The notes under the pieces: generated by a model
Database searches by the model: none
Seen by the model: the letters and a program-made list of their open reading frames with translations, nothing else
Told to the model about the DNA's origin: nothing
In this document: piece after piece, positions 51,924 to 61,072 of the stretch
Position numbering within the stretch: the first letter of the stretch is position 1
Layout of the letters: each line of letters begins with the position of its first letter
Program-made: the position numbers and the translations under genes
DNA from: a virus
Virus record (IMG/VR): IMGVR_UViG_3300009506_000022
Coordinates: 1-64,000 of that record
DNA: 64,000 nucleotides
Direction: 5' to 3' (one strand)

Positions 51924-53717
51924 ATGGGAGAAATAACAAAAAACTCGAACTTGCCTCTTCCAGAATCCCCAGAATCTCTAGCGATAAGAAAAAGGAATGT
52001 TAGAGCTGTTTTGATAAATAGCGACATAATCAAAAAAGTTTCTACCGAAATAATAGAAAAACAAGAAGACACCGAAGTTGGAGGAAGCAAACAAGTAGAA
52101 ACCGAGTTTGCAAAGTTGATTTCTTCTGGACAAGCTATTGATCCACCTTTTGATATGTTTGTTTTATCCACTCTTTCTGAGTACAACTCGGAAATGGGAC
52201 CTTGCATCGAGGCAATGAGAACCAACATAGATGGATTCGGTCATCGCTTGGTTTATCGTGGCGATCCAAAAGAGCTTGAAAACGATAAGCCGTTGGCAAA
52301 GAAGGTCTTAGAAGAAAAGGTTAGATTGGAAAACTTCTTCTTGTATGCTGGGCTCGATGATTCGTTTACAAAGATCAGAAAGAAAATGAGAACTGATCTT
52401 GAAAAGACAGGGAATGCGTATTGGGAAGTTGTCCGCTCCATGAAAGGCGAGATTCAGTATTTTGTTCCAATAAAAAGCTATCAAGTTCGACTTACAAAAC
52501 GCGACAAAGAACCAACAGAAGTAAACTTTCCTGTAGTAAAAATAGGACCTGATGGTAAATCGATCAAAAACGATTCGTTCAAAGTAAATACTTATTTCAG
52601 GAGATTTGTTCAGATCACATCGACAACATCTGTTGGCGCAAAAAAAAGTTGGTTCAAACAGTTTGGCGATCCAAGAATAATGGATTGCAAAACTGGGAGT
52701 TATGTTTCTCAAGGCGACTTGGAAAACTTCGAAGATACTGGCAAACCGATGCCAGCAAGTAGAAGGGCAAACGAAGTCGTTCATTGGAAAATGAATGACG
52801 ATCGTTCCCCCTATGGATTGCCTCGATGGATTGGAATATTCCTTGATATTTTGGGAGACAGAAAAGCAAGCGAAATCAACTATATTACTTTTTGTAACAA
52901 TAATATTCCAAGCTTGATTATTGCGGTTTCGAACGGGCAACTAACACAAGATACAGTTGATCGCATCAAAGAGTTTTTCGAGAAAGTTCAAGGTGACGAC
53001 AACCGTTCGAAAGCACTTGTGCTTGAAGCAGAACCATCAGATGAAGATGATGGAGAGGATGCTGGCGCGACCAAGATTGACGTAAAAACGCTAACGGAAG
53101 CGCAACATGATGATGCGATGTTCCAAAACTATAGTCGAGAGAACAGAGAAAAGGTTCGTGTTATCTGGCGCCTTCCTCCTATTTTCACTGGTAGAGCTCA
53201 AGACTATACGAGAACAACGGCTGAAACTTCTAGAGCGTTAGCTGATGAGCAAATTTTCGCACCAGAACGAGACGATTTTGACGATTGGGTAAACCGTATT
53301 TTGTTTCCAAGAATGGGTGTTTTGTATCATCGTTTTCAATCGAACTCTCCAAATACAACTGATAACTCAGAACTTACAAAGATTCTTTCTGGCGCTGAGA
53401 AGACAGGAGGGATTACACCGCGGATCGCGAGAAAGGTTCTCGAGGATATTTTAAGCGTTGAACTTCCACCGTTTCCAGAGGACTTCAACCCAGATATTCC
53501 GTTTAGCCTGACAATGGCTGAAGCGGTAAAAAATATGGGAAACCCAGTTGAGCCAGGACAATCAGTTACAGCTCTAAAGGGGTTAGAGGATGTCGTGAAA
53601 CTAACTGGAACGCCACACCCATTGATTAGTGCATTGATACTTCTTCGAAAGTCGCTTGAAGTCGAATGGTTGAAAGAGGTTTCTGAATCAGAATCAGAAG
53701 AAGAACATGTTGCGTAG
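51924..53717 (+). CDS. portal protein (PBSX-like)
   Basis: DLEKTGNAYWEVVR, FKQFGDPR, ANEV.H, YGLPRW, F.NN.IP, RLPPIF.G, YTRTTA, EQIF.PER. Confidence 0.9.
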   Translation: MGEITKNSNLPLPESPESLAIRKRNVRAVLINSDIIKKVSTEIIEKQEDTEVGGSKQVETEFAKLISSGQAIDPPFDMFVLSTLSEYNSEMGPCIEAMRTNIDGFGHRLVYRGDPKELENDKPLAKKVLEEKVRLENFFLYAGLDDSFTKIRKKMRTDLEKTGNAYWEVVRSMKGEIQYFVPIKSYQVRLTKRDKEPTEVNFPVVKIGPDGKSIKNDSFKVNTYFRRFVQITSTTSVGAKKSWFKQFGDPRIMDCKTGSYVSQGDLENFEDTGKPMPASRRANEVVHWKMNDDRSPYGLPRWIGIFLDILGDRKASEINYITFCNNNIPSLIIAVSNGQLTQDTVDRIKEFFEKVQGDDNRSKALVLEAEPSDEDDGEDAGATKIDVKTLTEAQHDDAMFQNYSRENREKVRVIWRLPPIFTGRAQDYTRTTAETSRALADEQIFAPERDDFDDWVNRILFPRMGVLYHRFQSNSPNTTDNSELTKILSGAEKTGGITPRIARKVLEDILSVELPPFPEDFNPDIPFSLTMAEAVKNMGNPVEPGQSVTALKGLEDVVKLTGTPHPLISALILLRKSLEVEWLKEVSESESEEEHVA

Positions 53718-54819
53718 TCAAACAATACATAGCCATATGCATGATGGCATTTCTGCGATTGACGCTATTATCGGTAAGGCGTTGAAGGTGAGTGAACTTG
53801 CCAGGATTGCGAAGATCGAAACGAATCTTAGAAAGTATATTGGTCGCGAATGGGACTCGTTGGCTTTAGATGCATCGAAACAAGCTGCAAGTGTAATCCG
53901 TTCTGGTTCTGGCGATCCGAATAATGATGATATCAACAGAATGATGGTGAAGATAAATCGCGTAATGAGCGATTGGAACGACAACATAGAGAAGCGATAT
54001 ATAGATGACAACAAAGAGGTTTATGAACTTGCGCATATTGCAGCGATGAAGCGTTCTCTTGGCAAAAACAAGAAGCAATTAGAATACAATACGCCAATAG
54101 GGCCTGAAACGAAGGTAAGCAAAGCAAAAGATATCGTTTATGTTACAGGAGATGATGGCGCGCGAGTTCCTGTTGTTCTTCCCTCATTCAACACAGTTGA
54201 TCTTGCGGCCATTGATGCTTTTGAGGAACATCAAGTTTTTTGGATCGGTCGACATTATAAAGAAAACGTTTCAAACACAGTTGCTGAAACCGCTCGAAAC
54301 ACGATTGTGAAAGCTGGTCTTGGACGCGAAGAAGCTGGAAAGATCGCGCAAAAAGTTGTTCGTGAAACGCTGGATATCGTGAAGGTTCCAGGTGGATTCA
54401 GTGGAACATCAACACAGTATTTCGAAGGCTTGGTTGCGAACGCTGTTACAACACAACGTGTTGCGGCTCAACTCACGAGTTTCGAGCGATTTGGATACAC
54501 AAAACAAACTATTGTAAATCCTCGTGATCAGAGGACGTGTCCTATATGCGATTTGATGGACGGAAAAGTTTTTGATGTTTCTGATGGAAGGCGAACTTTA
54601 GATAGATTGGTCAAAGCGAAGAATCCTACTTCTGTAAAAAAGATTCAGCCATTTATGACAGTTGCGATCGCAAGAGAACTTACTGGTGGTAAACGCGGTC
54701 CTATTGGAGCCAAACAGACTAAAGCTATTGTCGCTAGAGGCAATTCGATTCCCCCATTTCATTTTAAATGTAGGTGCAGTATCGATATAACAGAGGAAGA
54801 AGAAATCATTTCTTTTTGA
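53707..54819 (+). CDS. head morphogenesis protein (SPP1 gp7/MuF family)
   Basis: D.RTCPIC..MDGKVF and PPFHFKCRC motifs; follows portal. Confidence 0.88.
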   Translation: MLRSQTIHSHMHDGISAIDAIIGKALKVSELARIAKIETNLRKYIGREWDSLALDASKQAASVIRSGSGDPNNDDINRMMVKINRVMSDWNDNIEKRYIDDNKEVYELAHIAAMKRSLGKNKKQLEYNTPIGPETKVSKAKDIVYVTGDDGARVPVVLPSFNTVDLAAIDAFEEHQVFWIGRHYKENVSNTVAETARNTIVKAGLGREEAGKIAQKVVRETLDIVKVPGGFSGTSTQYFEGLVANAVTTQRVAAQLTSFERFGYTKQTIVNPRDQRTCPICDLMDGKVFDVSDGRRTLDRLVKAKNPTSVKKIQPFMTVAIARELTGGKRGPIGAKQTKAIVARGNSIPPFHFKCRCSIDITEEEEIISF

Positions 54820-54828
54820 GGAGTCAAT

Positions 54829-57800
54829 ATGAAAAACGAGCTACCAAAATCTGGAATAGTAGTTACCCCATCAAGTATGGCTGTTGCGATTTCCGAAGGT
54901 AGAAAAACTATCTTGGTGAAGACGAGAAGCTACAATATTGCCAACAGAGAAATGTTACTTCTTGATCGCAACAAAGCGTTGGGTGTTGTAAAAATCGGAG
55001 AAGAACAGGTTCTTCAAAACGATAATTTTGGCGAACATGAAGAACAACATCTGATTACAAAAGAGATCAGAAAAGACTGGTCTGAAGCTCAACCATCATG
55101 GGAAGAAGGGCCGTTCTTTCAATGGTCTGTCGAGATGGTTCAGAAATTTGATGAACCAATAAAGACTTATGTTGAGATTGGACCAACAGTTGTTATAGAA
55201 GAAATAAGTGAAATCGATATTGAAAAACGAGGACCTTTTGGACGTTGGGGTAGTTCAGGAATGTATGCTGAATGGCTTATAAAGCAGTTTCCAGAACACA
55301 AGAAGTATGTCGAGCCATTTGCGGGTTCTGCTTCTATTTTCTTTCGAAAGCAACCTTCAGAATCTGAAGTTCTTGCTGACTACGATAGCGAGGTTGTAAA
55401 TGCTCTGAAAACAATTAAAAAGTTGACGGAAGAACAATTTACAGTTCTCGAGTCTAAAGATCGCATCTTGTCCGAAGATAAGTGGAAGGAAATGAGAAGT
55501 AACATTCCTGAAGATTCTTTAGATAGGCTTCATCGAATGTTGTTCTTGAATGGTGGGGGTTGGAGTTCGAGTCTTATAAGCTATAGAATTCATAAAGATG
55601 GAAAGCAATCGTATGACCCGAATAGGCTGAAGCCGTACAAAGAGAGACTGAATAAAGGAAAAGTATCAATAGAATGTGCTGATTGGAAAGCGACGATTAA
55701 TAAACATGATTCAAAAGACACATTTTTCTTTATTGATTGTCCATATCCTGGAGAGTGGAGCAAAAAAGCCGATGATATTCCAAATGACGATCCAAAACGT
55801 GGCGAAAAAGTTCCTCTTGAGGAGTATGGAAAAGTCTTGAAGTCGATCAAGGGAAGTTTCGTTTTTGCGCTTGGTGATCACAAAGAACATCTCAAGTTTT
55901 TGAAATCACTTGAAGGTGTTGAAATAAAAACGTTTAGTGGAACTGAAGCATCAAATAAAGGTGGAACAAAAACAGCAAAGAGATATTTTGCTTTTAAAAC
56001 AGCGGCGTGTGGGAGCAAAAAACCAAAAAAGAAATCGTTTGACGAAGTCGAAACAGATGCAATGGAGTTTATCGATATAACAGAGGACCAACATGTTTTT
56101 GACGGGTTGATCCTAACAACAGAAAAAGAGGTGATTGACTACAGCACTTCTGAGTTAGTTGATATTCATAAATTGCTTCATCAGATATATTCAGAATTAC
56201 CAGATGGTTGGAACACATCTGATGTTGTCAATTTACATTCGATGGTTGTTGATGAGTTGTGCTCAAGAGAAAAAAATCACCCGTCACCTCCAGATAATGG
56301 CCTTGACGATATTTCTTTTGATTTTGAGTGTCTTACATCGAAACAAAAGAAATGGTTTGAAGAAAATTGCGACGAAGTTCCAGAAATTGAAGAGAGCATA
56401 TCTTATCTAGAAAAACGTCGACTTGCTTTATGGGGTTCCACCGCTGGAAAAAGCAGAGTTGCCAAAAGAATTGTGTCGATGATCCCAGAACACAAAACGT
56501 ATGTCGAGCCGTTTGCTGGTGGTGCTGCTGTTTTTTATGCAAAAGAGCCAAGCGAAAAAGAGGTTCTTTGTGATTCAAATCCAGAAGTTACACACGCATT
56601 CAAGTTTGTTCAATCTGCAAGTGATAACGAAATCGAAGCGCTTAAGAAAATGGATTGGACAGTAAGCAAGCCTCGAGCAAAATCGGTTCATGAAATGAAA
56701 CCAAAAGGAAGCGCTGAGAGATTTTTTAGGTTTGCTTATAAGAGATATGCGCTTTTTATGCGAAATGAAAATAGGATTACCGCAATAGATCCAGCAAAAG
56801 AAGGGAAGGCGCCAGATATAGCGAGTAGGATTTCCGAAACAAGAGAGAGACTGAAGAGGGTTTCTATTGTTGAAGGTGGATATGAAAAAGCGGTTAGTAA
56901 GTTTGATTCGCCAGAAACATTCTTTTATTTCGATCCGCCATATCCAAGTTTGGTCCAGGAGGTTGGAGAGAAAAGCTTTGATGAGGAAGCTTTCATCAAA
57001 ACACTGAAAGGCTTGAAGGGAAAGTTTCTTCTCCATTATGAAGCAAAAGCGAAAAAGAAATTTGATGGCGTTGATGGTTGGATTGTAAAAACCATTTCTG
57101 TTGCTCGTACTCCAGGTCATACAAAAGGAGGTAGCGCGCCAGGAAAACTTCTTGAAGTTAGAAATTATGAACTACCCAAAAAGAAGGTGAAGAAAAACGA
57201 TCCGTATTTGATGGCACCAGAAGGAGAGTTCCCTTTTTCAATACAACACCATTGGATTGGAAAATCGATGAACTCAGTTTTGAGAATCGGTGTTGTTCCA
57301 GACAGATGTGCGATCGGTTGGGCGATGAATACTCAACAAACTGAAGTAAGCGAACCAGTAACAACTCTTGCGAAATCTCGAGAGATATCAAAAAACTCAA
57401 GCAATATTTTCAGTGTTGATTGGTCTATTGGTAGATGGAACAAGAAAGGTGAAGAGGAACAACATATAGAGATTCTTTGTAAACGCCAATCTGTTTTTTC
57501 TCCTGTTTGGCTCGACATTGAGGCGAAAACCGCGAATCCAAAAGAAGGTGAACCATTACCTCTTGGCGGGAATCCGAAATATCCAGGTGTTTTCGAGATT
57601 GTAGAAAAAGGGGTAGTTCAGTTTGGCGCTCAAAGCGAAACTCTTCATGAATATTTTCTTTCTGGCACTGGATTCAAAGGAAAAACTATCTTTCGTATGA
57701 TGAAGATCAAAAAATCGATAGATGGTGATTGTCATGTTTGTGGAGTTGACGCAATAGTTGATGTTGGTTGGGCCGATGAACTCCCAGTGAAACTTTGTAA

Positions 57801-58959
57801 AAAATGCTATGACGATTGGCAAAAAAAGGAAGTGATAGAAAAATCATGCATTCCACAGATAGAATATGGTGACGATATTTCGTTCTGGGTTGGAACCAAT
57901 TCGAAAGATGCTGTTCCATTTGTGCTATCCGAAAAAGCGGTGAGTAGCGAGTGGATGCCACCAGATGGCGTTGCCGCTTTACCTAAAGAGATCAAAAAAC
58001 AAATTCCTAAAGAGTACGAATATTGGAATGAAGCTGGTAGTGATGCGAGACAGATGAGAGATCAACTTGTAAAGGCGATTCAAGAAAAAGATATTCCTCC
58101 TTTTGATTTCGAGTCAATCTTCAAATCTGATAGCCAGAAATCTGGATTCGTTTTACAAAAGCAAATCTGGGAAGATAAGAGCGATCCACGCTGGTTCATT
58201 AGAATTGATACAGGCAAACCAGAAATAAACGTAATTGAATTGCAGTCAGACCCAACCAATATTGAAAAAAGTGAAGTCCGAGTTTGGGTAGAGAAATATA
58301 AGTCTTCAATGGATATCGAGGGGTTGTTGTCGGTTGCTCATTATCTAAATCCAAAGAAAGGGATTAGCTCGTATCTGAAGAAGGTTGATGTTGGAAACGC
58401 TTCTGTGTTGTCTGATTCTGAAGAATCTACTCAAATTGAGTTTAAAGGAGATATTCTGGATGGAGTATTTACGTTAAAGCGAAATAATAACGAGTACTTA
58501 TTAGAGAGAAGCGGCAACGACACAATTGCTGAAATAGAGAAAATGATTGATTTTGAACTTGTTTTGCCAATCGATCATTTTGAAATCCACAAAGCAAAAA
58601 AAGGCAAGGAAAAACGGTTAGTTACTGGAATAGTACTTGAACCAGATATGGTTGATGCTCAAGACGACACCATCAAGTCTGAAGTGATCGAAAAAGCAGC
58701 TCATATGTTTCTTACTCAGTACAACAAAGAAACGAAACTTGGTTTGATGCACACAACGTTTGGCGATATCGGATTTGAATTGTGTCAATCCTTTCTCTCT
58801 CCTGTTGAGTACACTGTAGGGAAAAAAACAGTAAAAAAAGGAAGCTGGGTAATGACAGTACATGTCACTGATGATAATAGATGGTATGATATAAAAAATC
58901 GCAGGCTCACTGGATTTAGTATTGGTGGGAAGGCGAGGATGGCGAAGAAGAATGGATAA
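54829..58959 (+). CDS. multidomain prohead-protease polyprotein: ASCH-like + 2x Dam-like adenine MTase + LigD-PE-like + XkdF-type serine protease
   Basis: Two PEHK.YVEPFAG...F blocks with DCPY and DPPY; C-terminal RLVTGIVLEP..VDAQ.D...IEKAAH.F..MH...KGSW....LTGFSIGG. Confidence 0.85.
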   Translation: MKNELPKSGIVVTPSSMAVAISEGRKTILVKTRSYNIANREMLLLDRNKALGVVKIGEEQVLQNDNFGEHEEQHLITKEIRKDWSEAQPSWEEGPFFQWSVEMVQKFDEPIKTYVEIGPTVVIEEISEIDIEKRGPFGRWGSSGMYAEWLIKQFPEHKKYVEPFAGSASIFFRKQPSESEVLADYDSEVVNALKTIKKLTEEQFTVLESKDRILSEDKWKEMRSNIPEDSLDRLHRMLFLNGGGWSSSLISYRIHKDGKQSYDPNRLKPYKERLNKGKVSIECADWKATINKHDSKDTFFFIDCPYPGEWSKKADDIPNDDPKRGEKVPLEEYGKVLKSIKGSFVFALGDHKEHLKFLKSLEGVEIKTFSGTEASNKGGTKTAKRYFAFKTAACGSKKPKKKSFDEVETDAMEFIDITEDQHVFDGLILTTEKEVIDYSTSELVDIHKLLHQIYSELPDGWNTSDVVNLHSMVVDELCSREKNHPSPPDNGLDDISFDFECLTSKQKKWFEENCDEVPEIEESISYLEKRRLALWGSTAGKSRVAKRIVSMIPEHKTYVEPFAGGAAVFYAKEPSEKEVLCDSNPEVTHAFKFVQSASDNEIEALKKMDWTVSKPRAKSVHEMKPKGSAERFFRFAYKRYALFMRNENRITAIDPAKEGKAPDIASRISETRERLKRVSIVEGGYEKAVSKFDSPETFFYFDPPYPSLVQEVGEKSFDEEAFIKTLKGLKGKFLLHYEAKAKKKFDGVDGWIVKTISVARTPGHTKGGSAPGKLLEVRNYELPKKKVKKNDPYLMAPEGEFPFSIQHHWIGKSMNSVLRIGVVPDRCAIGWAMNTQQTEVSEPVTTLAKSREISKNSSNIFSVDWSIGRWNKKGEEEQHIEILCKRQSVFSPVWLDIEAKTANPKEGEPLPLGGNPKYPGVFEIVEKGVVQFGAQSETLHEYFLSGTGFKGKTIFRMMKIKKSIDGDCHVCGVDAIVDVGWADELPVKLCKKCYDDWQKKEVIEKSCIPQIEYGDDISFWVGTNSKDAVPFVLSEKAVSSEWMPPDGVAALPKEIKKQIPKEYEYWNEAGSDARQMRDQLVKAIQEKDIPPFDFESIFKSDSQKSGFVLQKQIWEDKSDPRWFIRIDTGKPEINVIELQSDPTNIEKSEVRVWVEKYKSSMDIEGLLSVAHYLNPKKGISSYLKKVDVGNASVLSDSEESTQIEFKGDILDGVFTLKRNNNEYLLERSGNDTIAEIEKMIDFELVLPIDHFEIHKAKKGKEKRLVTGIVLEPDMVDAQDDTIKSEVIEKAAHMFLTQYNKETKLGLMHTTFGDIGFELCQSFLSPVEYTVGKKTVKKGSWVMTVHVTDDNRWYDIKNRRLTGFSIGGKARMAKKNG

Positions 58960-59803
58960 GCCGCAATCTTCAAAACAAAACCTAAAAGATGCCAACGAGA
59001 TTCTTGAGCTATTCGTAGGCGAGGTTTCGGTGGTAGATAAGCCAGCTAATCTGCGAGATTTTTTGGTAGTCAAAAGAAGAAACAAGGAGGACTCGATGGG
59101 ACAAGCTTTTCAGCAGGATCCTGAGGTCGACAATTTAGAGTTAGTAGAAAAACTAGCTTGGTCAGACCTTGAGAAAGCGGCGCTGCCTGATGATCTAAAG
59201 AAAATGATCGACTCAGCAGTTGCCTGGATGAAAAAAAACGCAAGTGCTGAGAACGCGCCGAAAGAAGCGATTCTTGCTGCTACAGCACTTCTATCAAAGG
59301 TTGCTGGCGGGAAGTTCCCTGGCACAGCACCGAAATCGAAGGATGATGATAAAGACAAGAGCGATGATAGCAAAGATAAGAAAAAGTCTTTGTTGGTTGT
59401 TGGAGATGACGGTTCTTTTGAGATCGGCGGTGAGCCTATCGAAAAAGGGAAATCTCAGTTTACCAAAGAAAGAGTTGACGCTTTGAAAAATGCAATAGCG
59501 CCTTTGATTGGCGTATATGCTCAAGTTGATGAAGCCGGTGCGAAAGAGATGGTTCAAAACCTTGTTGGCGAAACTCTTTCTGGTGAAATAAAGTGGACAG
59601 AAAAGCGTGTTCCAGAACCAACCGATATCGCAGAACAGATCAAGAAGGCAATGGAACCTTTTGCTGAACAAATCAAAGAGGTTGGAAAGCGAGTTGAAGA
59701 CCTCGAGGGTTCTCGCTCAGCTCCACAATCTGATCCTGGTGATGGTGACACCACCGACAAACAAAAAAGTGACAACCCTTGGGATGGCTTGCCGATAGGC
59801 TAG
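58952..59803 (+). CDS. protease C-terminal segment (EVSVVDKPAN) fused to capsid scaffold; internal start at 59096
   Basis: EVSVVDKPAN..FLVVK motif, coiled coil, C-terminal PWDGL; SD AAGGAGG before ATG 59096. Confidence 0.75.
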   Translation: MDKPQSSKQNLKDANEILELFVGEVSVVDKPANLRDFLVVKRRNKEDSMGQAFQQDPEVDNLELVEKLAWSDLEKAALPDDLKKMIDSAVAWMKKNASAENAPKEAILAATALLSKVAGGKFPGTAPKSKDDDKDKSDDSKDKKKSLLVVGDDGSFEIGGEPIEKGKSQFTKERVDALKNAIAPLIGVYAQVDEAGAKEMVQNLVGETLSGEIKWTEKRVPEPTDIAEQIKKAMEPFAEQIKEVGKRVEDLEGSRSAPQSDPGDGDTTDKQKSDNPWDGLPIG

Positions 59804-59860: not shown

Positions 59861-61072
59861 ATGGGTTTATCAAATGAAGAACTTGCAATGATCCAGAAGG
59901 CTATTACCGCGGCAAACGTCCTAGTTTCTGCAGGAAAGCTAAATCCAGTACAGGCCTCGAAGTTTCTCGATTATGTGATCGACACCACCGTTATGAAGAA
60001 CAATGTTCGTATTGTTCGTTTTCGTAACGAGAAGATGGAGATCAATAAACTCGATATCGGGAATCGAGTTATGTTTCCTGGAACCGAGTATCAAGCTCCA
60101 CAAGAGCGTCAAGGGGTTACATCTTCCAAGCTCGAGCTTCAACCGAAAGAGGTTGTTTGTGCTTTCGATATCACCGACACCTTCAAGAATCAAAATATCG
60201 AAGGTGATAACGCCGCTGATCACATCATGCGGATGTTTGCAACGGGTTGGGGAAACAACATGGAAGAGACAGCGATCAACGGTGATGTCGTTGGTCCAGC
60301 TGGTCTTGAAAATGATGTGTGGGGGTCTGGCTCAACCACACAATACGTCCTTGATTCTTTGCTGGCTTTATTTGACGGTTGGTGGCGTAAAGCAGATGGC
60401 GCTCATCTCGTTAATATGAATGGTGCAAATGTTGGAATCAGTGTTTTTCGGAAGATGTTGACTGCAATGCCAGCCAAGTTCAAAAAGCAACGGCGTAATC
60501 TTCGATGGCTTGTTTCCGATGAGTTGGCGGATGTGTATATCGAAAAGGTTTCAACACGCCAAACAGCGAAGGGTGATCGTGCGGCTGAAGGCGAGGAACA
60601 ATCTCCTCTTGGAATCCCCATGGTGAGAATCCCGGGATTGCCTTTTAACCCAAAGATCGTTCAACATGTCGCGCTTCCGAACGACACCGCAGTAGCTTTA
60701 CGCTACAAACCGATTGTTTCTGCTTCAGAGGTAGTGACACCAAGCACGTTGGATCGAACTCCAGTGACTCCATATGTTGAGGGAACCGCCTATGATATGG
60801 ATTACGTCAATGGGACGATCACAAATCCAAGTGGTGACGCAACTATCGGTGATGGCGATACTGTCAAGATCACTTACGAAGCGGCTCCTCAAATCATTCT
60901 AACCCATTGGCAGAACTTCATTCTTGCTTTTGGGATGGATGATCTCAAAGTCGAGAGACAACGCAATATCCACAAGCGCGCTGATGAGTATGTTATGAGT
61001 GGTCGGTTTGACCAACTGATTGAAAACCTCGATGCTTGCGTCAAGGGATACAATCTAGGGGATAGTCTATAG
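59861..61072 (+). CDS. major capsid protein (HK97 fold) with inserted beta domain
   Basis: AGKLNP.QA..FLD, NIEG, E...INGD, DGW, MP.KFK; strong SD AGGAGG; follows scaffold. Confidence 0.9.
   Translation: MGLSNEELAMIQKAITAANVLVSAGKLNPVQASKFLDYVIDTTVMKNNVRIVRFRNEKMEINKLDIGNRVMFPGTEYQAPQERQGVTSSKLELQPKEVVCAFDITDTFKNQNIEGDNAADHIMRMFATGWGNNMEETAINGDVVGPAGLENDVWGSGSTTQYVLDSLLALFDGWWRKADGAHLVNMNGANVGISVFRKMLTAMPAKFKKQRRNLRWLVSDELADVYIEKVSTRQTAKGDRAAEGEEQSPLGIPMVRIPGLPFNPKIVQHVALPNDTAVALRYKPIVSASEVVTPSTLDRTPVTPYVEGTAYDMDYVNGTITNPSGDATIGDGDTVKITYEAAPQIILTHWQNFILAFGMDDLKVERQRNIHKRADEYVMSGRFDQLIENLDACVKGYNLGDSL

What the first reader, a model, noticed from the sequence alone, without database searches (positions are those of the whole stretch)
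54829..58959. Prohead protease fused to two adenine methyltransferases and other DNA-acting domains: candidate capsid-loading polyprotein
Seen: the gene in the protease slot (portal-MuF-[this gene]-scaffold-capsid) is 1376 aa. Only the last ~125 aa (from ~58585) are the XkdF-type protease (LEP..VD, MH, GFSIGG). Upstream are an ASCH/PUA-like N-domain (aa ~1-130), Dam/D12-class MTase 1 (from nt 55228; PEHKKYVEPFAG, DCPY at 55735), a small His-rich helical domain, MTase 2 (from nt 56416; PEHKTYVEPFAGG, DPPY at 56932) and segments resembling LigD 3'-phosphoesterase (FSIQHHW, FVLQKQ). Established: prohead proteases are assembled inside the procapsid and autoprocess; Dam-class MTases protect DNA from restriction; MuF-linked polyvalent proteins are known virion cargo. 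Inference: the protease acts as a carrier that packages MTases into the head, either to methylate DNA during packaging or to be co-ejected and modify DNA before host restriction acts.
Basis: partly seen in the sequence, partly recalled or inferred. Interest (0 to 1): 0.93.

Follow-up and report, generated by a model that had tools for sequence, protein, structure and literature searches.

The report
Enzyme cargo fused to phage head protease
A 98-kb uncultured bacteriophage encodes its only capsid-maturation protease as the tail end of a 1376-residue protein that also carries two DNA adenine methyltransferases and two inactive-looking DNA-repair folds. This is probably a way to load enzymes into the virus head, and hundreds of related uncultured-phage proteins have the same layout.

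Summary
ORF 54829-58959 is one open 1376-aa frame in the portal-MuF-[gene]-scaffold-capsid slot. It contains:
- two Dam-class (D12) methyltransferases
- a conserved helical mini-domain
- two LigD-phosphoesterase-like barrels; the second is confirmed by fold, and both lack the catalytic residues
- a C-terminal XkdF protease core, the only prohead protease found in the genome

The ASCH/PUA call for the N-domain could not be confirmed.

This gene is not a one-off. Of the 150 nearest protease relatives in a 1.8-billion-protein library, 93 exceed 400 aa, and all carry the protease at the extreme C-terminus. In a protease-anchored sample of 31 related cargo-bearing genes, cargo includes D12 methyltransferase (11), ATP DNA ligase (8) and 2H phosphoesterase (4).

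The protease core stops just after its catalytic serine. The β-strand that usually follows lies at the start of the next gene (scaffold), in any of the three frames, so there is no frameshift. A complex model passes its controls. This gives a concrete tether to the scaffold.

Carrier-for-capsid-loading is the best reading but is not shown. Iyer et al. 2017 already noted C-terminal assemblin-like peptidases on polyvalent proteins. An overlapping window of this genome was noted earlier in the scan.

The parts
54829..58959 (+). Whole cargo-protease polyprotein gene (1376 aa, P0001), with GGAG 7 nt upstream of the ATG
54829..55203 (+). N-terminal domain, aa 1-125. It is conserved in P0002-P0006. 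Fold unknown; the ASCH-like call is unverified.
55240..56004 (+). MTase 1, aa 138-392. D12/Dam fold, motif I EPFAGS, motif IV variant DCPY (aa 303-306).
   Evidence: PF02086 E 2.7e-15; Dam fold Z 17.1; motif variants in relatives
56119..56358 (+). Small helical domain, aa ~431-510, with a conserved HP-x-PPD-x-GLD motif. It recurs in distant relatives. Function unknown.
   Evidence: no Pfam, PHROG or Atlas lead
56419..57162 (+). MTase 2, aa 531-778. D12 class, motif I EPFAGG, motif IV DPPY (aa 702-705). It is the best-conserved methyltransferase among related cargo proteins.
   Evidence: PF02086 E 1.4e-16; phrog_13242 E 2.9e-56; alignment
57223..57828 (+). First LigD-phosphoesterase-like barrel, aa ~799-1000. 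The signature reads IQHHWIGKSMNSVLR, with the His and Asp ligand positions lost. It is followed by a Cys4 zinc ribbon (C968, C971, C990, C993).
   Evidence: consensus VQHHWRGKSxHSDxR in relatives; strand topology in the model; weak hhalign to the second barrel
58135..58527 (+). Second barrel, aa 1103-1233. LigD 3'-phosphoesterase fold without the catalytic His residues, in this protein and in all relatives.
   Evidence: Foldseek prob 1.00; VIA Z 16.5, rmsd 1.9 A over 115 residues vs 3p4h; profile hit to 3p4h E 1.7e-4
58585..58959 (+). XkdF-type (Peptidase_S78_2) protease core, aa 1253-1376. His1308 and Ser1364 (GFSIGG) are invariant. The gene stops 9 codons after GFSIGG.
58952..59803 (+). Scaffold gene, long form. 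Its ATG overlaps the polyprotein stop (ATGGATAA), in the +1 frame.
   Evidence: its C-part matches phrog_3017, a protease-scaffold family
58988..59077 (+). Conserved strand at the scaffold N-terminus (..NEILELFVGEVSVVDKPANLRDFLVVKR). It is predicted to complete and dock the protease core.
   Evidence: found in 75 of 84 loci, in all three frames; invariant E24, S26, V28, A32, F37; complex ipSAE 0.81 vs best control 0.00
59097..59803 (+). Probable short scaffold form from an in-frame ATG preceded by AAGGAGG. A second Met (MGAF) at this place is conserved in most relatives.
53707..54819 (+). MuF-like minor head protein (370 aa, no extra cargo here)
   Evidence: PF04233 E 2.5e-7
59861..61072 (+). 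Major capsid protein. Its N-terminal ..AMIQK|AIT.. aligns with ELVxK|A, which is conserved across the lineage and may be a processing site.
   Evidence: phrog_1623 E 1.9e-66

Best explanation
This is a bacteriophage polyvalent cargo-protease.

Shown:
- The phage's only capsid-maturation protease core (XkdF/S78_2 type, His1308 and Ser1364) is the C-terminal 9% of a late structural polyprotein.
- The N-terminal 1250 residues are two Dam-class adenine methyltransferases, two catalytically degenerate LigD-phosphoesterase folds, a zinc ribbon and two small domains of unknown function.
- The same layout, with varying cargo, is common in related uncultured phages.

Supported by a model and by conservation:
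- The core lacks the β-strand that follows the catalytic serine in single-chain relatives.
- That strand is supplied by the N-terminus of the long form of the scaffolding protein, encoded by the next gene.

Inferred:
- Docking onto the strand both completes the protease and ties the whole cargo train to the scaffold.
- The cargo is therefore built into the procapsid when the coat protein assembles around the scaffold.
- The activated protease then cuts the scaffold, and probably the inter-domain linkers.
- Folded cargo domains too large to leave through capsid pores stay in the head and enter the next host with the DNA.
- There, the methyltransferases could shield incoming or newly replicated DNA from restriction.
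For: Domain map.

The protease is the phage's own maturation enzyme:
- Only prohead protease found in a 98%-complete 98-kb genome.
- Conserved synteny of TerL-portal-MuF-protease-scaffold-MCP in related IMG/VR loci, with TerL, portal and MCP matches commonly E<1e-100.

The cargo is variable and always in front of the protease:
- Protease gene size is bimodal. Of 53 non-redundant complete genes, 24 are 260 aa or less and 23 exceed 600 aa (maximum 1771).
- Of the best 150 of 4286 library hits, 93 exceed 400 aa. Of the 144 with a recognisable Ser motif, 143 end within 25 residues of it.
- Cargo tally among 31 related genes: D12 MTase 11, ATP DNA ligase 8, 2H phosphoesterase 4, and single cases of pyrophosphatase and C5 MTase.

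The strand belongs to the protease:
- It follows the core in the same chain in P0038, P0055, P0077, P0078 and P0081.
- It precedes the core in Lactococcus phage 28201 gp33.
- It lies on the next gene in 75 of 84 loci (frames 0, +1, +2 = 19, 21, 35).
- It also lies on the next gene in Pseudomonas phage VCM and Rhizobium phage RHph_Y1_11.
- Complex model: ipSAE 0.81, best of 3 controls 0.00. That mark was reached by 58 of 80 solved complexes and 2 of 110 mismatched pairs. The runs share at least 84% of contacts, and partner pLDDT is at least 53.
- In the model the strand lies against the Ser1364 strand and next to His1308.

The cargo is under selection: every domain is 55-89% identical among P0001-P0005, apart from MTase 1 in P0005 and one short linker.

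Precedents in print:
- P1 DarB (a 250-kDa methyltransferase-helicase, about 40 copies per head) and the T4 capsid-targeting sequence: PMC9024508.
- Polyvalent proteins ending in an assemblin-like peptidase: PMC5512222.
Against: - There is no virion proteomics, no cleavage-site data and no methylation data for this virus or any close relative.
- The complex model concerns two halves of what is one chain in relatives. Such pairs can pass by likeness to known folds, and my own alignments were used, so the calibration counts hold only roughly.
- Both phosphoesterase-like domains lack the metal ligands here, so part of the 'cargo' is not an enzyme in the usual sense.
- MTase 1 has an unusual DCPY motif, and its activity is unknown.
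- These are the only D12 methyltransferases in the genome. Methylating progeny DNA in the producing cell would need no packaging at all.
- The candidate cut motif [LIVM][EQ]K lies at 3 of 6 linkers but occurs 10 times in all. That enrichment is not significant on its own.
Confidence: 0.6

Rival explanations
1. Late cytoplasmic enzyme. The polyprotein works mainly in the producing cell. Its methyltransferases modify replicated phage DNA before or while it is packaged, as the T4 and P1 Dam enzymes do. The fusion to the protease only gives late co-expression, or a way to destroy surplus enzyme at assembly. Delivery to the next host plays no part.
For: - The two D12 domains are the only ones in the 98-kb genome.
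- The gene lies in the late structural operon.
- GATC is only mildly depleted (observed/expected 0.62), so many candidate Dam sites, if GATC is the target, would need protecting.
Against: - It does not explain why DNA ligase, 2H phosphoesterase, pyrophosphatase and dead phosphoesterase folds sit at the same N-terminal position in relatives.
- It does not explain why the additions are always N-terminal to a protease core that is itself tied to the scaffold.
- It does not explain why MuF, a known virion-cargo carrier, shows the same size variation in the same lineage.
- Cytoplasmic methylation and packaging are not mutually exclusive.
Confidence: 0.25
2. Structural filler. The N-terminal train acts mainly as an internal core or scaffold extension (head-size control, DNA-ejection aid, pressure buffer). 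The enzyme folds are relics.
For: - Both LigD-like barrels have lost the catalytic residues, yet stay 58-69% identical among close relatives.
- MTase 1 has a non-canonical DCPY motif.
Against: - MTase 2 keeps motif I and DPPY, and is the most conserved cargo domain (78-84% identity).
- More distant relatives keep intact HxDxR phosphoesterase motifs and ligase domains.
- About 45% of lineage members assemble heads with a bare protease of 137-260 aa, so the train is not needed for head building.
Confidence: 0.1
3. Artefact. The long ORF is an assembly chimera, or a frameshift error joins or splits genes.
For: None found. Raw reads could not be examined.
Against: - Four independent full-length relatives from other samples have the same domain order.
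- Dozens of further loci have the same stop position just after GFSIGG.
Confidence: 0.02

Closest known systems
Polyvalent proteins of phages and conjugative elements (Iyer, Burroughs, Anand, de Souza, Aravind 2017; PMC5512222)
   Same: - Many unrelated nucleic-acid-acting domains sit in one polypeptide.
- The gene lies in the head module next to portal and MuF.
- That paper states that an assemblin-like peptidase, when present, is always at the C-terminus and probably processes the protein at assembly.
- Adenine methylases, 2H phosphoesterases and pyrophosphatases are listed cargo types.
   Different: - That paper calls the peptidase-ending forms 'rather limited in their distribution'. Here they make up more than half of a large lineage.
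- Its methylases are EcoKI/TaqI-like enzymes paired with SNF2 helicases, not Dam/D12 enzymes.
- Its text, as searched, contains no mention of XkdF.
- The passages I read also did not describe LigD-phosphoesterase folds, ATP DNA ligase cargo or a protease completed by the scaffold.
Phage P1 DarB and the Dar anti-restriction system; T4 internal proteins with a capsid-targeting sequence
   Same: A large methyltransferase-bearing protein is built into the head (about 40 copies) and is believed to enter the cell with the DNA to counter restriction. A short signal suffices to load foreign proteins (PMC9024508).
   Different: In P1 and T4, targeting is by a short N-terminal peptide and helper proteins, and the protease is a separate gene. 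Here the protease core itself is the C-terminal carrier. No experiment exists for this lineage.
XkdF-type prohead protease-scaffold fusions (Bacillus PBSX XkdF, PF14550; Lactococcus phage 28201 gp33; phrog_3017)
   Same: The protease core is the same, with conserved His and Ser. It occupies the same slot between portal/MuF and the capsid gene, and the scaffold is encoded right behind it.
   Different: In those phages the protease and scaffold are one chain, and the conserved strand sits in front of the core. Here the core is severed from both the scaffold and the strand, and it carries 1250 residues in front.
Arthrobacter Laroyevirus gp18 (annotated as 'capsid maturation protease', 'RNA ligase' or 'aldolase')
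   Same: These are cultured phages with a true cargo-protease fusion: about 240 N-terminal residues, labelled 'RNA ligase' in some records, in front of an XkdF core. The gene follows MuF.
   Different: The protein is only 370 aa with one cargo domain. It has no methyltransferase and no LigD-like fold, and it belongs to a different phage lineage.
LigD 3'-phosphoesterase domain (PDB 3n9b, 3p4h, 3p43, 5dmp)
   Same: The barrel fold is the same (Z 16.5, rmsd 1.9 A). The signature motif is recognisable in the first copy.
   Different: The His/Asp ligand positions (as I recall them from the P. aeruginosa enzyme) are replaced in both copies here. The domains are fused to a virion protease rather than to a ligase-polymerase.

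Membership tests
Peptidase_S78_2 / XkdF prohead protease (PF14550) | Profile match above the curated cut-off | tested here: met
   91.6 bits against a cut-off of 24, covering 5-123 of 126 positions
Peptidase_S78_2 / XkdF prohead protease (PF14550) | Conserved catalytic His and Ser | tested here: met
   H1308 and S1364 (GFSIGG) are invariant in 32 aligned sequences and in alignments A1 and A2
Peptidase_S78_2 / XkdF prohead protease (PF14550) | Complete fold in one chain, including the strand with the EVSxVDxPAN motif | tested here: not met
   The gene stops 9 codons after GFSIGG, and the strand is on the next gene. The complex model places the strand against the active-site strand.
Peptidase_S78_2 / XkdF prohead protease (PF14550) | Proteolytic processing of head proteins | not testable with these tools
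   Needs virion or procapsid mass spectrometry
D12-class N6-adenine DNA methyltransferase (PF02086, Dam-like) | Profile match above the cut-off for each copy | tested here: met
   57.2 and 61.5 bits against a cut-off of 22
D12-class N6-adenine DNA methyltransferase (PF02086, Dam-like) | AdoMet motif I (FxGxG) and catalytic motif IV (DPPY) | tested here: inconclusive
   MTase 2 has EPFAGG and DPPY, so it meets the feature. MTase 1 has EPFAGS but DCPY. Relatives have DCPY, DPSY or DPPY at this place. The effect of the Cys is unknown.
D12-class N6-adenine DNA methyltransferase (PF02086, Dam-like) | Dam fold | tested here: met
   MTase 1 model against E. coli Dam 2g1p: Z 17.1, rmsd 3.5 A, 218 of 246 residues. 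MTase 2 was not modelled.
LigD 3'-phosphoesterase superfamily | Barrel fold | tested here: met
   aa 1103-1233 against 3p4h: Z 16.5, rmsd 1.9 A, 115 of 118 residues; Foldseek prob 1.00
LigD 3'-phosphoesterase superfamily | Catalytic His, His, Asp, Arg signature (residue roles from my knowledge of P. aeruginosa LigD) | tested here: not met
   The first copy reads IQHHWIGKSMNSVLR, where relatives have ..H.RGKS.HSD.R. The second copy has no His in any relative. It is therefore filed as the fold only, not as an enzyme of the family.
Polyvalent proteins (Iyer et al. 2017) | Several functionally disparate domains in one chain, encoded in a portal/terminase phage head module | tested here: met
Polyvalent proteins (Iyer et al. 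2017) | Packaged in the capsid and delivered with the DNA | not testable with these tools
   Inference only
ASCH / PUA-like domain | Profile or fold match for aa 1-130 | tested here: inconclusive
   No Pfam hit at E up to 5. Atlas score 0.85, and the ASCH-bearing cluster (36% of its members) ranks only fourth. Model pLDDT is 26-57.

The most novel reading that the evidence does not exclude
A two-piece prohead protease serves as a modular capsid loader. In a large lineage of uncultured phages, and in some cultured ones such as Otagovirus VCM, the protease core is inactive and untargeted until the N-terminal strand of a long scaffold isoform inserts next to the catalytic Ser and His. That one event switches on maturation and ties whatever is fused in front of the core to the scaffold. 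Methyltransferases, ligases, phosphoesterases and other domains can then be swapped in freely as head cargo for delivery to the next host.
Probability: 0.4. Interest if true: 0.8.

Novelty: new variant of a known kind. Interest (0 to 1): 0.62.

Why it matters
- If the cargo is really loaded and delivered, this lineage shows a second general carrier for phage 'first-strike' proteins, besides MuF and short targeting peptides. Its cargo set (Dam-class methylases, LigD-like folds, ATP ligases, 2H enzymes) was not listed in the parts of the 2017 survey I read.
- A strand-completed protease would explain how maturation is kept off until assembly. It would also offer a simple handle for loading foreign proteins into capsids.
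- In practice, it explains why bare 150-212-aa proteases of cultured phages are mislabelled 'DNA methyltransferase' in public records.

Tried and rejected
**Hypotheses rejected**
- Programmed frameshift joining the polyprotein to the scaffold. The next gene lies in frame 0, +1 or +2 in 19, 21 and 35 loci. It has its own Met, and the spacing runs from an 11-nt overlap to 340 nt.
- Internal start giving a bare protease. There is no Shine-Dalgarno sequence before Met1239.
- Archaeal host, suggested by a Thorarchaeota-MAG hit. The window encodes a bacterial RecA, the C-terminal HHH_6 domain typical of bacterial Pol III alpha (DnaE), SbcCD-like proteins and UvrD.
- Cultured phages annotated 'DNA methyltransferase' or 'DNA methyltransferase/prohead protease' as close precedents. 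In VCM and RHph_Y1_11 the genes are only 150 and 212 aa, bare proteases with a carried-over label.

**Tests that gave nothing decisive**
- The [LIVM][EQ]K cleavage code. Three of the 10 occurrences fall in linkers that cover 14% of the protein, which is not significant alone. Conservation of ELVxK|A at the capsid N-terminus keeps it as a lead.
- N-domain: no Pfam or PHROG hit, no short homologues, poor model.
- Helical mini-domain: no lead.
- PDB sequence search with the protease core: no hit.
- Pfam S78 against the strand: only E 0.28.
- hhalign of the two barrels against each other: weak (E 1e-3, probability 22%).
- Close relatives in IMG/VR using the whole protein: none.
- Genome collection scan: 3 loci, uninformative about the host.

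**Tools unavailable**

Full report
**1. What is in the sequence**

ORF 54829-58959 (+) is one uninterrupted 1376-codon frame, with GGAG 7 nt before its ATG. It lies between a MuF-like gene (53707-54819) and a scaffold-like ORF. The large terminase and portal are upstream, and a phrog_1623 capsid protein is downstream.

The window is part of a 98,006-bp IMG/VR virus record rated 98% complete. Other genes in the window point to a bacterial host: a bacterial RecA (E 8e-60), the C-terminal HHH_6 domain typical of bacterial Pol III alpha (DnaE), SbcCD-like proteins, UvrD and a C5 methylase. A Thorarchaeota MAG label on one relative does not outweigh this.

**2. Domain map**

| Part | Residues | Finding |
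|---|---|---|
| N-domain | 1-125 | no family or fold assigned |
| MTase 1 | 138-392 | PF02086, E 2.7e-15; EPFAGS and DCPY |
| Helical mini-domain | ~431-510 | conserved motif, function unknown |
| MTase 2 | 531-778 | PF02086, E 1.4e-16; EPFAGG and DPPY |
| First barrel and Zn ribbon | ~799-1000 | degenerate LigD-phosphoesterase signature |
| Second barrel | 1103-1233 | LigD 3'-phosphoesterase fold, no catalytic His |
| Protease core | 1253-1376 | PF14550 (XkdF), E 5e-26 |

- An AlphaFold model of aa 1-540 is poor overall (pLDDT 54). MTase 1 still aligns to E. coli Dam over 218 of 246 residues (Z 17.1, rmsd 3.5 A).
- A model of aa 785-1255 is good (pLDDT 87, pTM 0.82).
- In that model, residues 1103-1233 superpose on archaeal and bacterial LigD 3'-phosphoesterases (Z 16.5, rmsd 1.9 A, 115 of 118 residues of 3p4h; Foldseek prob 1.00). 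A profile search against PDB sequences hits the same region (E 1.7e-4).
- The preceding barrel carries the family's signature. Relatives read VQHHWRGKSxHSDxR. In this protein and its four closest relatives the second His and the Asp are replaced; here the motif is IQHHWIGKSMNSVLR.
- The second barrel has no His at these places in any relative. Both copies are therefore phosphoesterase folds without the catalytic set, as I know that set from the P. aeruginosa enzyme.
- A Cys4 ribbon (C968, C971, C990, C993) follows the first barrel.
- The helical stretch at aa ~431-510, with an HP-x-PPD-x-GLD motif, recurs in distant relatives. It has no known family.
- The ASCH/PUA call for aa 1-130 could not be confirmed.

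**3. It is not an artefact, and it is not alone**

- Four full-length relatives (1370-1376 aa, 62-71% identity) from other samples share the layout. Identity per segment is 55-89%, except for MTase 1 in P0005 (31%) and one short linker (38-61%).
- A word-indexed search found 115 long relatives. Nearly all combine PF02086 with PF14550. About 29 also have an ATP DNA ligase domain, and 10 have a 2H domain. Some have a C5 methylase, PALP or intein domains.
- An exhaustive search with the protease core alone found 4286 proteins at E up to 1e-3.
- Among the best 150 of those, 40 are 260 aa or less and 93 exceed 400 aa (maximum 2109). All carry the core at the extreme C-terminus.
- In IMG/VR, 382 loci were confirmed and 80 were fetched. 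They share the TerL-portal-MuF-protease-scaffold-MCP order, with strong matches to this window's proteins.
- The protease gene length there is bimodal: 24 of 53 are 260 aa or less, and 23 exceed 600 aa.
- A protease-anchored sample of 31 such genes gives D12 methylase 11, ligase 8, 2H 4, DUF6582 2, and pyrophosphatase, C5 methylase and LAGLIDADG 1 each.

**4. The protease is in two pieces**

An earlier first-reader note on this genome pointed to this, and I tested it.

- The polyprotein stops 9 codons after GFSIGG. The next ORF starts at an ATG that overlaps the stop (ATGGATAA), in the +1 frame. It opens with ..NEILELFVGEVSVVDKPANLRDFLVVKR.
- Five relatives that run on past GFSIGG have this same motif 40-55 residues later in the same chain, followed by a scaffold-like tail.
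- Lactococcus phage 28201 gp33 has the motif in front of the core.
- In 75 of 84 loci it opens the next gene. The frames are 0, +1 and +2 in 19, 21 and 35 loci, and the spacing runs from an 11-nt overlap to 340 nt. That excludes a conserved frameshift.
- Pseudomonas phage VCM and Rhizobium phage RHph_Y1_11 show the same split.
- The strand has invariant E24, S26, V28, A32 and F37.
- It is usually followed by a second in-frame Met (MGAF). Here that Met is at 59097, behind AAGGAGG, which suggests a long and a short scaffold form.
- A controlled complex prediction of the core with scaffold residues 1-62 scored ipSAE 0.81 against 0.00 for the best of 3 controls.
  - That mark was reached by 58 of 80 solved complexes and 2 of 110 mismatched pairs.
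  - The runs agree in at least 84% of contacts, and partner pLDDT is at least 53.
  - Scaffold residues 13-33 lie against core residues 124-129 (the Ser1364 strand) and 62-69 (around His1308).
- This pair is two halves of what is one chain elsewhere, so the pass may reflect fold likeness. It supports binding and does not show it.

**5. How it most likely works**

Shown:
- the domain map;
- that this is the sole protease found in the genome;
- the conserved slot;
- the variable N-terminal cargo;
- the split.

Supported by a model: the scaffold strand docks at the active site.

Inferred:
- Docking completes the enzyme and ties the cargo train to the scaffold.
- The cargo train is therefore enclosed when the coat assembles.
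- The protease then cuts the scaffold and probably the linkers.
- Folded cargo stays in the head and enters the next cell with the DNA.

Candidate cut sites of the form [LIVM][EQ]K lie at three domain borders (after K133, K529 and K1238). The capsid N-terminus has ELVxK|A conserved across the lineage. The motif count alone is not significant.

Precedents for head-loaded anti-restriction enzymes are P1 DarB and the T4 internal proteins (PMC9024508).

**6. Rivals**

- The two D12 domains are the genome's only ones. They may therefore simply methylate progeny DNA late in the producing cell. This does not explain the other cargo types at the same position, and it can coexist with packaging.
- A purely structural role is suggested by the dead phosphoesterase folds. 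It is weakened by the well-kept MTase 2 and by the many lineage members that manage with a bare protease.
- An assembly error is very unlikely.

**7. Relation to what is known**

- Iyer et al. 2017 described polyvalent proteins. They wrote that assemblin-like peptidases, of limited distribution, are always C-terminal and probably process the protein at assembly (PMC5512222).
- PHROGs already holds MTase-XkdF fusion families: phrog_13242 (unknown function) and phrog_1530 (labelled DNA methyltransferase).
- Cultured Arthrobacter Laroyeviruses have a 370-aa cargo-XkdF fusion, labelled 'RNA ligase' in some records.
- What I did not find in print:
  - the scale of the XkdF-anchored family;
  - its Dam, LigD-fold and ligase cargo;
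  - the strand supplied by the scaffold.
- I therefore rate the finding a new variant of a known kind.

**8. Limits**

Contexts came from IMG/VR loci only, and no reads were examined.
- The residue roles in LigD, and the HK97 precedent for a Lys-specific cut, rest on my own knowledge.

Noticed in passing
same genome, 69173-69865 (5.2 kb beyond the window; L091:5173-5865): A 230-aa ORF with no Pfam family ends ..QLWDGLPV, like the scaffold's C-terminal ..NPWDGLPIG. It is the only other + strand ORF of 80 aa or more in the last 34 kb with W-x-G-[LVI]-[PLIV] at its end. The scaffold C-terminus W-x-G-[VL]-[LI] is conserved across the lineage. This may be a second capsid-targeting route.
   Followed up: partly
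L010:1-3646, L019:1-3391, L027:3588-7863, L031:3156-5844: In related phages the MuF gene just upstream of the protease also varies widely in length, from about 350 to more than 1400 aa. The lineage therefore seems to use two alternative cargo carriers, sometimes both at once.
   Followed up: no
L028, L042, L059, L069 protease N-termini; also P0008, P0009, P0013: Several proteases, bare and cargo-bearing, begin with a peptide like ..SxALExGGKLxPAxxPGSG... It resembles the capsid protein's N-arm (..ADALASSGKLNPAQ..) and could be a mimic used for incorporation.
   Followed up: no
L086:5941-6393 (Pseudomonas phage VCM), L085:5974-6612 (Rhizobium phage RHph_Y1_11), Lactococcus phages 50901, 62501 and others: Bare XkdF proteases, or protease-scaffold genes, carry the product name 'DNA methyltransferase' in public records. 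The label was evidently carried over from fused relatives.
   Followed up: yes
L005, L007, L008, L010 scaffold genes (alignment A5, columns ~340-400): Some scaffold proteins of the lineage carry an inserted zinc-ribbon-like CPxCG...DGVCxxCGY segment in their acidic middle part.
   Followed up: no
window 1-64000: The palindromes CCGG (observed/expected 0.32), TTAA (0.35) and AATT (0.47) are strongly depleted. GATC is mildly depleted (0.62). This suggests restriction avoidance at sites other than a Dam site.
   Followed up: no
P0025, P0096 and one member of alignment A6: Some cargo-protease genes of relatives carry intein or LAGLIDADG domains (PF14890, PF14528, PF03161) inside the cargo.
   Followed up: no
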